Program-made: the position numbers and the translations under genes
Shown here: in pieces, positions 15,445 through 15,877 of the stretch
Position numbering within the stretch: position 1 is the first letter of the stretch
How the letters are laid out: every line of letters begins with the position of its first letter
Notes under the pieces: model-generated
Database searches by the model: none
Told to the model about the DNA's origin: nothing
What the model saw: the letters and a program-made list of their open reading frames with translations, nothing else
Assembly (NCBI GenBank): GCA_048882505.1
Contig: JBHLRO010000030.1
Location: forward strand, 3,540-35,539
DNA length: 32,000 bases
Origin: Candidatus Thorarchaeota archaeon
Lineage (GTDB): Archaea > Asgardarchaeota > Heimdallarchaeia > Hodarchaeales > Hodarchaeaceae
Direction of reading: 5' to 3'

Positions 15445-15483
15445 GCGAAAATTTTTAAAGACTCTTAGAACCGCCTTTAATTG
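15445..15483 (+). promoter_or_regulatory. Candidate BRE/TATA elements for the permuted 5S transcript
   Basis: GCGAAAA-TTTTTAAAG at 15445-15460 and TTTAATTG at 15476-15483. Either places the TSS upstream of the 5' arm of the processing stem (15517). Confidence 0.3.
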
Positions 15484-15537
15484 AATCTAAAGGTACAGAA
15501 TCTCACGTTGTATCATGACATCGAGATCCTGCCGGAA

Positions 15538-15686
15538 GTTAAGCCGAGTTTCGTTCTGATCTGTACTGTTATGCGCGAGCTTACGGGAACATCAGAAAAC
15601 GGGTATTGCCCGTTCATAGGGCTCGAGTAACACCCGGTCTCATTCCGAAAGATATGAAGGAATTTCTTCATTCCGGGAACCCGGAA
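15538..15686 (+). rRNA. rrf: 5S rRNA gene, circularly permuted and intron-containing
   Basis: 15538-15603 is the 5S 3' half (GTTAAG CCGAGTT TCG TTCTGAT CTGTAC...GC-GCGA-GC...GGGAAC ATCAGAA AACGGG). 15604-15608 is the linker TATTG. 15609-15649 is the 5' half (CCCGTT CATAG GGCTCGAG TAACA CCCGG TCTCATTCCGAA). 15650-15679 is an intron and 15680-15686 is CCCGGAA. Helices I (CCCGTT/AACGGG), II, III and V (TTCTGAT/ATCAGAA), loop E and the GCGA tetraloop are all recoverable. Confidence 0.93.
15650..15679 (+). other. 30-nt archaeal BHB/BHL-type intron in 5S rRNA loop C
   Basis: Central helix UCCG(15644-47)/CGGG(15674-77), bulges AA|A (15648-50) and AA|C (15678-80), intron hairpin GA-U-AUGAAGG-AAUU-UCUUCAU-UC. 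Removal restores CAUUCCGAACCCGG. Confidence 0.85.
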
Positions 15687-15877
15687 ACAGGATCCTCATG
15701 TCCATTTACTTGGATATTAGGGATGTGGAGAGTATGTTGTTTTTAGAATAGACATCGAAGGTTTTCCCCAAGGACCAATGTCCATATTCGTGATTTTTAA
15801 TGTATATGAATCGATTCTTATCAAAGGAATGAAAAAGCAGATTCAAAATCATTTCAGTTTTGGTTGGGACTGTTATA

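What the first reader, a model, noticed from the sequence alone, without database searches (positions are those of the whole stretch)
15644..15680. 30-nt BHB/BHL intron inside 5S rRNA loop C
Seen in sequence: the conserved loop C motif CAUUCCGAAC is interrupted by AGAUAUGAAGGAAUUUCUUCAUUCCGGGAA (15650-15679). It forms the central helix UCCG/CGGG (one U-G pair), bulges AA|A and AA|C, and an intron hairpin (G15651-C15673, A15652-U15672, AUGAAGG/UCUUCAU, AAUU loop). Standard BHB cuts remove exactly these 30 nt and give CAUUCCGAA|CCCGG, a 13-nt loop C. Established: archaeal BHB introns are known in tRNA, 16S, 23S and a few mRNAs, and loop C is the uL5 contact surface. I am not aware of 5S introns. 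The known 5S insertions (e.g. Halococcus) are retained in the mature RNA. Inference: this is a 5S rRNA intron, independent of the permutation.
Basis: partly seen in the sequence, partly recalled or inferred. Interest (0 to 1): 0.9.

Follow-up and report, generated by a model that had tools for sequence, protein, structure and literature searches.

The report
Splicing-type mini-intron in 5S rRNA
The only 5S ribosomal RNA gene of this Asgard archaeon carries a 30-base insert in its most conserved loop, and the insert has the shape, exact boundaries and patchy distribution of a tRNA-type (bulge-helix-bulge) intron, a kind I found no report of in 5S rRNA; RNA data to show that it is removed are still missing.

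Summary
Window 15650-15679 is a 30-nt insert in the loop C motif CCGAAC of a circularly permuted 5S rRNA gene (15538-15686). This is the only 5S gene found in the genome.

- **Distribution.** Nineteen congeneric genomes, and every other hit among 83 genomes of the class, read CAUUCCGAACCCGG without the insert. Only G000, its near relative G016 and three environmental strains carry it.
- **Motif.** The insert forms a BHB core: central helix UCCG/CGGG, bulges AA|A and AA|C, and an intron hairpin. The standard cuts remove exactly the 30 nt. Only 0.4-1.2% of randomised inserts do the same.
- **Second lineage.** A distant Asgard family (records titled Promethearchaeota or Hodarchaeota) has 30-nt inserts at the same site in at least 15 genomes. 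All end in CGGGAA. Their hairpins differ in sequence but covary.
- **Other sites.** That family also has BHB inserts of about 30 nt at three other 5S sites.
- **Enzymes.** G000 encodes two EndA paralogs and RtcB, and its tRNA introns are 22-31 nt long.

My verdict is a splicing-endonuclease intron, at about 0.85. A retained expansion segment is the main rival. No RNA run was available, so excision is inferred and not shown. Earlier notes of this scan reported the same kind of intron in other Asgard genomes. The paper library held no description of it.

The parts
15517..15531 (+). Leader strand of the outer processing helix (h). It pairs with 15688-15702.
   Evidence: MFE fold. The equivalent helix covaries in 8 of 9 pairs across 22 relatives.
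15532..15535 (+). Leader CCGG, the 5' strand of the central helix H1 of the circularisation BHB. It is discarded with the leader.
   Evidence: Relatives vary here (CCGG, CUGG, CCGA) while the 3' copy is invariant. G021 changes leader, helix III and 3' copy together.
15536..15538 (+). Bulge AA|G, with the predicted cut at 15537|15538. G15538 becomes the 5' end of the excised 5S body.
   Evidence: Joining A15686 to G15538 gives CCCGGAA-GUUAAG, the contiguous order of unpermuted 5S genes of family f17.
15538..15603 (+). 5S rRNA 3' part, encoded first: helix III inner pairs, loop B, helix II 3' strand, helices V/IV and helix I 3' strand.
   Evidence: Rfam 5S partial match of 20 bits. Model R1 scores 131 bits. 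Covariation.
15604..15607 (+). Linker UAUU, which joins the native 3' and 5' ends and closes helix I.
   Evidence: Alignment A1. Other families have longer linkers at this place.
15608..15649 (+). 5S rRNA 5' part: helix I 5' strand, helix II 5' strand, helix III 5' strand, and loop C up to CCGAA. This is exon 1 of the loop C intron.
   Evidence: Alignment with relatives. Homology ends at 15649.
15644..15647 (+). UCCG, the exon strand of the intron's central helix H2.
   Evidence: Pairs with 15674-15677. Paired in all 13 distinct intron-bearing sequences.
15648..15650 (+). 5' bulge AA|A, with the predicted 5' splice site at 15649|15650.
   Evidence: BHB rule checked on this genome's tRNA introns and applied to the 5S gene.
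15650..15679 (+). The 30-nt intron.
   Evidence: Not found in 19 congeneric genomes, and the only over-length full hit among 83 genomes of the class. Present in G016 and in strains X3, X4 and X7.
15651..15673 (+). Intron hairpin h': G51-C73, A52-U72, bulged U53, A54-G60 with U65-U71, and loop A61-U64.
   Evidence: Strain variants fall only at U53 and U64, both unpaired. The homologous helix covaries in 7 of 8 pairs.
15674..15677 (+). CGGG, the intron strand of the central helix H2.
   Evidence: Invariant in all 13 distinct sequences.
15678..15680 (+). 3' bulge AA|C, with the predicted 3' splice site at 15679|15680.
   Evidence: AA followed by C is invariant in alignment A2.
15680..15686 (+). 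A 7-nt micro-exon, CCCGGAA: the last loop C base, the helix III 3' strand (which is also the H1 3' strand) and AA. It lies between the intron's 3' splice site and the circularisation junction.
   Evidence: Read directly from the sequence. The same arrangement occurs in all loop C intron loci.
15685..15687 (+). Bulge AA|A of the circularisation BHB, with the predicted cut at 15686|15687.
   Evidence: Geometry of the motif. The position is conserved in alignment A1.
15688..15702 (+). Trailer strand of the outer processing helix.

Best explanation
Window 15650-15679 is a bulge-helix-bulge (splicing-endonuclease) mini-intron in loop C of a circularly permuted 5S rRNA gene of an Asgard archaeon.

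Shown by sequence and comparison:
- The 30 nt are an insertion into the conserved CCGAAC motif of what appears to be the genome's only 5S gene.
- They fold into the HBh' form of the BHB motif: central helix U44-G47 with C74-G77, 3-nt bulges A48 A49|A50 and A78 A79|C80, and an intron hairpin that starts right after the bulge.
- The rule-based cuts restore exactly the sequence of intron-less orthologs.

Inferred:
- The two-subunit EndA of this organism cuts at 15649|15650 and 15679|15680.
- RtcB joins A15649 to C15680.
- The flanking BHB (cuts at 15537|38 and 15686|87) circularises the permuted RNA, joining A15686 to G15538.
- Maturation therefore needs four cuts and two ligations, and it passes through a 7-nt micro-exon, CCCGGAA.
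- In the precursor, the helix next to the intron's 3' bulge is the leader/CCGG helix of the circularisation BHB. It may serve as the missing outer helix, giving a tandem double BHB.
For: 1. **Insertion relative to orthologs.** Nineteen congeneric genomes lack it. G000 gives the only over-length full hit, 179 nt against 133-154 nt, among 83 genomes of the class.
2. **Sole 5S gene.** Neither Rfam 5S nor model R1 finds a second copy in G000. The same holds for five other intron-bearing genomes. The exons show compensatory changes, so the gene is under selection.
3. **BHB geometry.** The cuts coincide exactly with the insertion boundaries. The chance rate is 0.35-1.2%.
4. **Rule validated in this genome.** The same cutting rule reproduces six tRNA introns of 22-31 nt here, one of them in the variable arm.
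5. **A distant family has it too.** In family f14, at least 15 genomes carry an insert at the same site. It is 30 nt long (31 in one) and always ends in CGGGAA. H2 is paired in 100% of cells. Seven of the 8 h' pairs have compensatory changes. The first h' pair is A-U in 8 sequences and G-C in 5, and is never broken. Overall pairing is 87%, against 17-61% in slid controls.
6. **Other 5S sites.** BHB inserts of 29-31 nt occur at three more sites: helix IV, loop D and a second loop C site. Some have full hBHBh'. At these three sites the cuts restore the sequence layout of intron-less relatives. Two genes carry two inserts.
7. **Enzymes.** G000 has two EndA paralogs: one has Tyr, His and Lys at the motif positions, and I saw no such His in the other. 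It also has RtcB. Five other genomes also have two EndA genes.
8. **Strain variants.** Changes inside the insert fall only at unpaired positions 15653 and 15664.
9. **Site is a poor fit for an expansion segment.** It interrupts a conserved motif. The neighbouring bacterial positions 42-43 are blocked by uL5, and known expansion segments lack complementarity to the core (PMC7812874).
Against: - There is no RNA evidence of any kind.
- The motif has no outer exon helix in cis (h = 0), and H2 contains a U-G pair. The MFE of the isolated region adds a fifth pair, U43-A78, which shortens the 3' bulge to 2 nt.
- In the full precursor, the thermodynamic ensemble gives H2 and H1 pair probabilities of about 0.002. 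Four CCGG copies compete for pairing. The double-BHB conformer lies 5 kcal/mol above the MFE.
- The 7-nt micro-exon must be held and ligated at both ends.
- A conserved hairpin with covariation would also be expected for a retained structured insert.
Confidence: 0.85

Rival explanations
1. The 30 nt are a retained expansion segment. They stay in the mature 5S rRNA as an extra hairpin protruding from loop C, as in Halococcus or the clostridial oversized 5S rRNAs.
For: Expansion segments do occur in 5S rRNA, including in bacterial loop C at positions 34-37 (PMC7812874). The insert is a compact hairpin whose structure is conserved, which a retained module would also show. Nothing here shows that it is removed.
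Against: - The site splits the conserved CCGAAC motif. The only archaeal expansion site known is 104.1-105.
- Reported expansion segments do not interrupt conserved motifs and lack complementarity to the core. Here the invariant tail CGGGAA pairs with core UCCG in exact BHB register.
- Distribution is patchy even within genera.
- Similar inserts sit at three other sites, including helix IV and loop D, each with cuts that restore the consensus layout.
- The length is fixed at about 30 nt, like this genome's tRNA introns.
Confidence: 0.1
2. The locus is a decaying or non-ribosomal 5S copy, and the working 5S gene lies in an unassembled part of the genome.
For: The genome is a 94.5%-complete MAG in 83 contigs, and rRNA genes are often left unassembled. 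In G016 the contigs break inside this gene.
Against: - No other 5S-like locus turns up with Rfam or with R1, in G000 or in five other carriers. One carrier is a single-contig genome and another is 99% complete.
- The exons keep all helices through compensatory changes.
- The same intron-bearing gene is conserved in several strains, and in at least 15 species of another family.
Confidence: 0.03
3. The motif is cut but the ends are not rejoined. The result is a fragmented 5S rRNA held together by base pairing, so the insert acts as an excised spacer and not as an intron.
For: Excised spacers that leave fragmented rRNAs are known in bacteria ('rRNA in pieces', cited in PMC7812874). The permuted gene already needs one discontinuity or a closed circle.
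Against: Without ligation the 7-nt piece CCCGGAA would be held by only 4 bp. RtcB is encoded in the genome, and EndA products are its normal substrates (established knowledge).
Confidence: 0.02

Closest known systems
Non-canonical BHB introns of archaeal tRNA genes (Thermoproteales; Asgard tRNA genes, bioRxiv 10.64898/2026.10.13.758758)
   Same: - Size is 20-30 nt, with an HBh' or hBHBh' motif and cuts after the second bulge nucleotide.
- Several introns can sit in one gene, with short exons between them.
- Distribution among close relatives is patchy.
- The same EndA and RtcB machinery would act.
- The rule was checked on six tRNA introns of this genome.
   Different: The host RNA is 5S rRNA. 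The site is a protein-contacting loop of a ribosomal RNA. The preprint on Asgard tRNA introns does not mention rRNA.
BHB introns in archaeal 16S and 23S rRNA genes (Thermoproteales, Desulfurococcales; from my own knowledge)
   Same: They are introns in a ribosomal RNA, removed at a BHB motif by the tRNA splicing endonuclease, and they are sporadically distributed.
   Different: Those introns are usually hundreds of nucleotides long and often carry homing endonuclease ORFs. This one is a 30-nt mini-intron without coding capacity, and it sits in 5S, where I found no report of an intron.
5S rRNA expansion segments (Halococcus morrhuae, Thermoanaerobacterium; PMC7812874, PMC7530397)
   Same: They are extra structured nucleotides inside a 5S gene that standard models miss. 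Some bacterial cases lie in loop C.
   Different: Those are retained in the mature RNA, sit at exposed sites (archaea: 104.1-105 only), do not break conserved motifs and do not pair with the core. The present insert fails each of these sequence-level criteria.
Permuted RNA genes matured through a BHB: Thermoproteus SRP RNA (PMC4731332), Cyanidioschyzon permuted tRNAs (PMC3978253), Pyrococcus 23S (PMC7758197)
   Same: The host gene here is permuted and flanked by a BHB. EndA cutting and ligation would restore the canonical order, and the intron uses the same enzymes.
   Different: Those cases have the flanking BHB only. Here a second BHB, nested and almost abutting the first, interrupts the RNA 7 nt from the junction.

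Membership tests
Archaeal BHB (splicing-endonuclease) intron | A 4-bp central helix flanked by two 3-nt bulges on opposite strands | tested here: met
   U44-G47 pairs with C74-G77 (one U-G pair), with bulges 15648-50 and 15678-80. The MFE can add U43-A78.
Archaeal BHB (splicing-endonuclease) intron | At least one flanking helix (h or h') of 2 bp or more, directly adjoining a bulge | tested here: met
   h' is G51-C73 and A52-U72, followed by 7 more pairs after a bulged U. h in cis is 0. The motif is therefore class HBh', which the Asgard tRNA census counts as canonical.
Archaeal BHB (splicing-endonuclease) intron | Predicted cuts and ligation restore the functional, uninterrupted RNA | tested here: met
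   The product CAUUCCGAA-CCCGG is identical to 19 congeneric genes. The chance rate is 0.35-1.2%.
Archaeal BHB (splicing-endonuclease) intron | The motif is maintained by covariation in homologous introns | tested here: met
   In alignment A2 of 13 sequences, H2 is 100% paired and 7 of 8 h' pairs are compensatory. No shuffle out of 500 reaches the observed score.
Archaeal BHB (splicing-endonuclease) intron | Splicing endonuclease and RtcB ligase are encoded, and the endonuclease is of a broad-specificity type | tested here: met
   Two EndA paralogs, each with N and C domains, one of them with Tyr, His and Lys at the motif positions. RtcB is present. Broad specificity is inferred from the two-subunit make-up and was not assayed.
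Archaeal BHB (splicing-endonuclease) intron | The intron is absent from the mature RNA, and the excised intron is detectable | not testable with these tools
   No RNA run was listed for this stretch.
5S rRNA expansion segment | Rooted at an exposed site without interrupting a conserved sequence motif | tested here: not met
   It splits CCGAA|C of loop C. Criteria are taken from PMC7812874.
5S rRNA expansion segment | No noticeable complementarity to the 5S core | tested here: not met
   The invariant tail CGGG pairs with core UCCG.
5S rRNA expansion segment | Retained in the mature ribosomal 5S rRNA | not testable with these tools
   No RNA data.

The most novel reading that the evidence does not exclude
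The loop C insert belongs to a family of recurrently gained, possibly mobile, 30-nt BHB mini-introns of Asgard 5S rRNA genes. This family prefers the site because the circularisation BHB of the permuted gene supplies its missing outer helix. The precursor would then carry a tandem double BHB: h, bulge, H1, double bulge, H2, bulge, h'. Maturation of 5S rRNA would need four endonuclease cuts and two ligations around a 7-nt micro-exon, and might end in a covalently closed 5S circle. In that case 5S biogenesis in the closest archaeal relatives of eukaryotes would depend wholly on the tRNA-splicing machinery.
Probability: 0.4. Interest if true: 0.9.

Novelty: new variant of a known kind. Interest (0 to 1): 0.85.

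Why it matters
BHB introns are known in tRNA, 16S and 23S rRNA and a few mRNAs. 5S rRNA was thought to be intron-free in archaea: the review of oversized prokaryotic 5S genes lists a single archaeal insertion site, and that insert is retained.

If these inserts are spliced, three things follow.
- The substrate range of the archaeal splicing endonuclease grows to include 5S rRNA.
- In many Asgard archaea, a universal ribosomal RNA can only be made by cutting and rejoining.
- It helps explain why rRNA and tRNA finders report missing 5S genes and few tRNAs in these genomes.

The same site is occupied in distant lineages, and four different sites are used within one family. This gives a compact system, a 120-nt RNA with 30-nt introns, for studying how BHB introns are gained and lost. 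It also gives annotators a concrete rule for finding these genes.

Tried and rejected
- **RNA evidence.** No RNA holder was listed for the stretch in two searches, so nothing can be said about expression or splicing.
- **Thermodynamic folding of the whole precursor.** The ensemble gives about 0.002 probability to H2 and to H1 alike, because four CCGG copies compete. The flanking BHB, which is supported by covariation, is missed in the same way. I therefore treat this as uninformative and not as evidence against the motif.
- **In-silico mature 5S fold.** My segment ends were off by one base and the MFE did not give the canonical 5S fold. I did not use it.
- **Second copy of the intron in the genome.** blastn-short found only chance-level matches of 11-18 nt, so there is no sign of transposition from a tRNA gene.
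- **Rfam.** The 5S model does not reach its threshold on this gene, so I built my own model, R1.
- **Pattern scan of all species genomes.** It added two further archaeal carriers and the record titles.
- **ARAGORN with introns allowed.** Its long-intron calls look unreliable. I used only the introns re-derived.
- **Homology between the G000 intron and the family f14 introns.** By eye, the sequence similarity beyond the structurally constrained tail is not convincing. Common descent, transfer and convergence remain open.

Full report
**What is at the site.** The surrounding 15517-15702 is a circularly permuted 5S rRNA gene.
- The 3' part of 5S (from GUUAAG of helix III/loop B to the 3' strand of helix I) comes first, at 15538-15603.
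- A UAUU linker follows at 15604-15607.
- The 5' part (helix I 5' strand to loop C) comes last.
- Complementary leader and trailer strands flank the whole.

Rfam finds only a 20-bit partial 5S match here. It finds no other 5S in the 4.3-Mb, 94.5%-complete genome.

**The host gene is real and conserved.**
- I aligned 22 homologous loci from the genus and from a second family.
- On that alignment, my hand-drawn structure of the permuted 5S plus the leader/trailer helix is paired in 96% of cells. Compensatory changes occur in 23 of 40 pairs, against 31-48% pairing in slid controls.
- A covariance model built from the alignment (R1) hits 77 of 83 genomes of the class and 91 of 151 genomes sampled across the phylum.
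- Record titles of some of these loci read 'Promethearchaeota archaeon' or 'Candidatus Hodarchaeota archaeon', so the phylum is Asgard.
- The flanking motif is a BHB: leader/trailer helix, CCGG (15532-35) with CCGG (15681-84), and bulges AA|G and AA|A.
- Its cuts and ligation give CCCGGAA-GUUAAG, the contiguous order seen in unpermuted 5S genes of another family.
- One relative (G021) changes helix III, the 3' CCGG and the leader CCGG together.

**The 30 nt are an insertion.**
- BLAST homology of 19 congeneric genomes ends exactly at 15649.
- All 19 loci from 18 congeners, plus G005, read CUCAUUCCGAACCCGGAAAC without a break.
- Among 83 genomes of the class, full-length R1 hits are 133-154 nt long. 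G000 is the exception at 179 nt.
- The insert is also present in G016, which is 99% identical, and in contigs of three other sediment metagenomes, with no indel.
- The only differences inside it are at 15653 (the bulged U of the hairpin) and 15664 (the hairpin loop), which are both unpaired positions.

**BHB geometry.**
- Folding 15630-15690 alone reproduces the proposed structure.
- I used the rule of a 4-bp central helix with a cut after the second nucleotide of each 3-nt bulge. I derived it from the canonical 37/38 tRNA intron.
- I checked the rule in this genome. It recovers introns of 22-31 nt in tRNA-Thr, Ala (two genes), Met, Gln and Ser(GCU), the last in the variable arm. Each yields a tRNA that ARAGORN accepts.
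- Applied to the 5S gene, the rule gives one motif at the insert, cutting after 15649 and after 15679.
- Loose BHB-like motifs are frequent (17 in 110 nt). Coincidence of the cuts with the phylogenetic boundaries is rare: 0.35% of shuffled inserts, and 1.2% with the hairpin kept and the tail randomised.
- The motif is of the HBh' class and has no outer exon helix in cis.

**Independent comparative support.**
- Some R1 hits in another class of the phylum were 173-211 nt long. I fetched 40 of these loci.
- In family f14, at least 15 genomes, plus two further records from a pattern scan, carry an insert at exactly the same place: after CCGAA and before CCCGGAA.
- It is 30 nt long (31 in one) and always ends in CGGGAA.
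- In an alignment of the 13 distinct sequences, including G000 and G016:
  - H2 is paired in every sequence.
  - The first h' pair is A-U in 8 and G-C in 5, and is never broken.
  - Seven of 8 h' pairs have changes on both sides.
  - 87% of cells pair, against 17-61% in slid controls, and no shuffle out of 500 reaches the covariation score.

**Other sites in the same family.** Inserts of 29-31 nt occur at three further 5S sites, each with a BHB.
- Helix IV 5' strand: CUGC AA|A ... GCAG AA|U, with h of 3 and h' of 5.
- Loop D: h of 3-6 and h' of 4-9.
- A second loop C site: UCCC AU|U ... GGGA AA|C.

At these three sites the cuts restore the sequence layout of intron-less relatives. A further 30-nt insert in G285 lies in the same region, but its BHB register is uncertain. 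Two genes carry two inserts each. Extra length in some other loci lies in the linker that closes helix I and not in the 5S body.

**Only copy.** Each of these genomes shows a single 5S locus. Rfam finds no canonical 5S in five carriers that I checked.

**Machinery.**
- G000 encodes two EndA-family proteins with both domains. By eye, one (182 aa) has Tyr, His and Lys at the motif positions, and I saw no such His in the other (213 aa). This suggests a two-subunit enzyme like the crenarchaeal heterotetramer. That type is reported to cleave relaxed motifs (PMC3239211 abstract, and my own knowledge).
- Five other genomes, four of them from family f14, also have two EndA genes.
- RtcB is present in G000.
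- Only 27 tRNA matches reach E of 0.001 or better in G000. This fits the heavily interrupted tRNA genes recently described for Asgard archaea (bioRxiv 10.64898/2026.10.13.758758).

**Mechanism, with its status.**
- Shown: the insertion, the motif, the exact in-silico restoration, the covariation, and the presence of the enzymes.
- Inferred: EndA cuts at 15649|50 and 15679|80, and RtcB joins the exons. The flanking BHB is cut at 15537|38 and 15686|87, and its ends are joined.
- The two 3' cuts are 7 nt apart. A micro-exon, CCCGGAA, must therefore be ligated on both sides, either in an ordered pathway or while held by its CCGG pairing.
- In the precursor, the helix directly 3' of the intron's bulge is leader CCGG with 15681-84. 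It could stand in for the missing outer helix, giving a tandem double BHB.
- This conformer is 5 kcal/mol above the MFE, and only 1.5 kcal/mol above the conformer with the flanking BHB alone.
- Whether the final 5S is re-opened at the UAUU linker or stays circular is outside this finding.

**Rivals.**
- A retained expansion segment remains possible, because nothing shows removal. The sequence-level criteria fit poorly, however. The only archaeal expansion site known is 104.1-105. Expansion segments avoid conserved motifs and lack complementarity to the core. Bacterial positions 42-43, next to this site, are blocked by uL5 (PMC7812874). By my own count from the E. coli sequence, recalled from memory, the insert lies at about 46/47.
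- The pseudogene reading is weakened by the absence of any other copy and by the conservation of the exons.
- The cut-without-ligation reading is weakened by the 7-nt piece and by the presence of RtcB.

**Novelty.** Searches of the held library found no archaeal 5S intron and no permuted archaeal 5S gene. The 2021 review of oversized 5S genes and the 2026 preprint on Asgard tRNA introns do not describe one. Earlier notes of this scan reported a 30-nt loop C intron in permuted 5S genes of other Asgard genomes, and permuted 5S genes in many Asgard lineages. These are AI notes. I list them but do not count them as support.

Noticed in passing
window 15517-15702: The host gene is a circularly permuted 5S rRNA gene flanked by a covarying BHB. 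Model R1 finds the same layout in 77 of 83 genomes of the class and in 91 of 151 genomes sampled from the phylum. Family f17 has ordinary, unpermuted 5S genes.
   Followed up: partly
L103, L132, L124 (helix IV); L120, L122, L125, L139, L149 (loop D); L123 (second loop C site): Family f14 (Hodarchaeota-type Asgard) has BHB inserts of 29-31 nt at three further 5S sites. L139 and L149 carry two inserts in one gene. L121 (G285) has a 30-nt insert whose BHB register is uncertain.
   Followed up: partly
L102, L126, L127, L167 (linker closing helix I): A GC-rich hairpin insert of about 31-35 nt sits in the loop that joins the native 5S ends. I did not examine it for a BHB.
   Followed up: no
L009:1150-1310 (G008:C16:11205-11360): A truncated second 5S-like copy (36.6 bits with R1) lies about 200 nt upstream of the intact permuted gene. 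It is probably a pseudogene.
   Followed up: no
L003 and L030 (G016 contigs C32 and C27): Both contigs end inside the 5S gene and overlap by 77 nt (window 15552-15628). This looks like an assembly-graph fork, perhaps from strain variation at 15549/15551.
   Followed up: no
G000 whole genome: Only 27 tRNA matches reach E of 0.001 or better. Several are 94-160 nt long, with BHB introns of 22-31 nt, one of them in the variable arm of tRNA-Ser(GCU) at C16:65700-65813.
   Followed up: partly
window 15640-15647 and 15668-15675: An 8-nt direct repeat, TCATTCCG, is formed by exon sequence and the 3' part of the intron. Part of it follows from the CCGG palindrome that H2 needs. The remaining 4 nt are unexplained.
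   Followed up: no
window 15452-15459 and 15740-15744: An A/T box, TTTTTAAA, lies about 60 nt upstream of the leader helix, and a T run lies about 40 nt downstream of the trailer. These are candidates for the archaeal promoter and terminator of an independently transcribed 5S unit.
   Followed up: no
window 15732 onward: Contigs of runs X3 and X4 match the window up to 15732 and then continue with unrelated sequence. The strains therefore differ in what follows the 5S gene.
   Followed up: no
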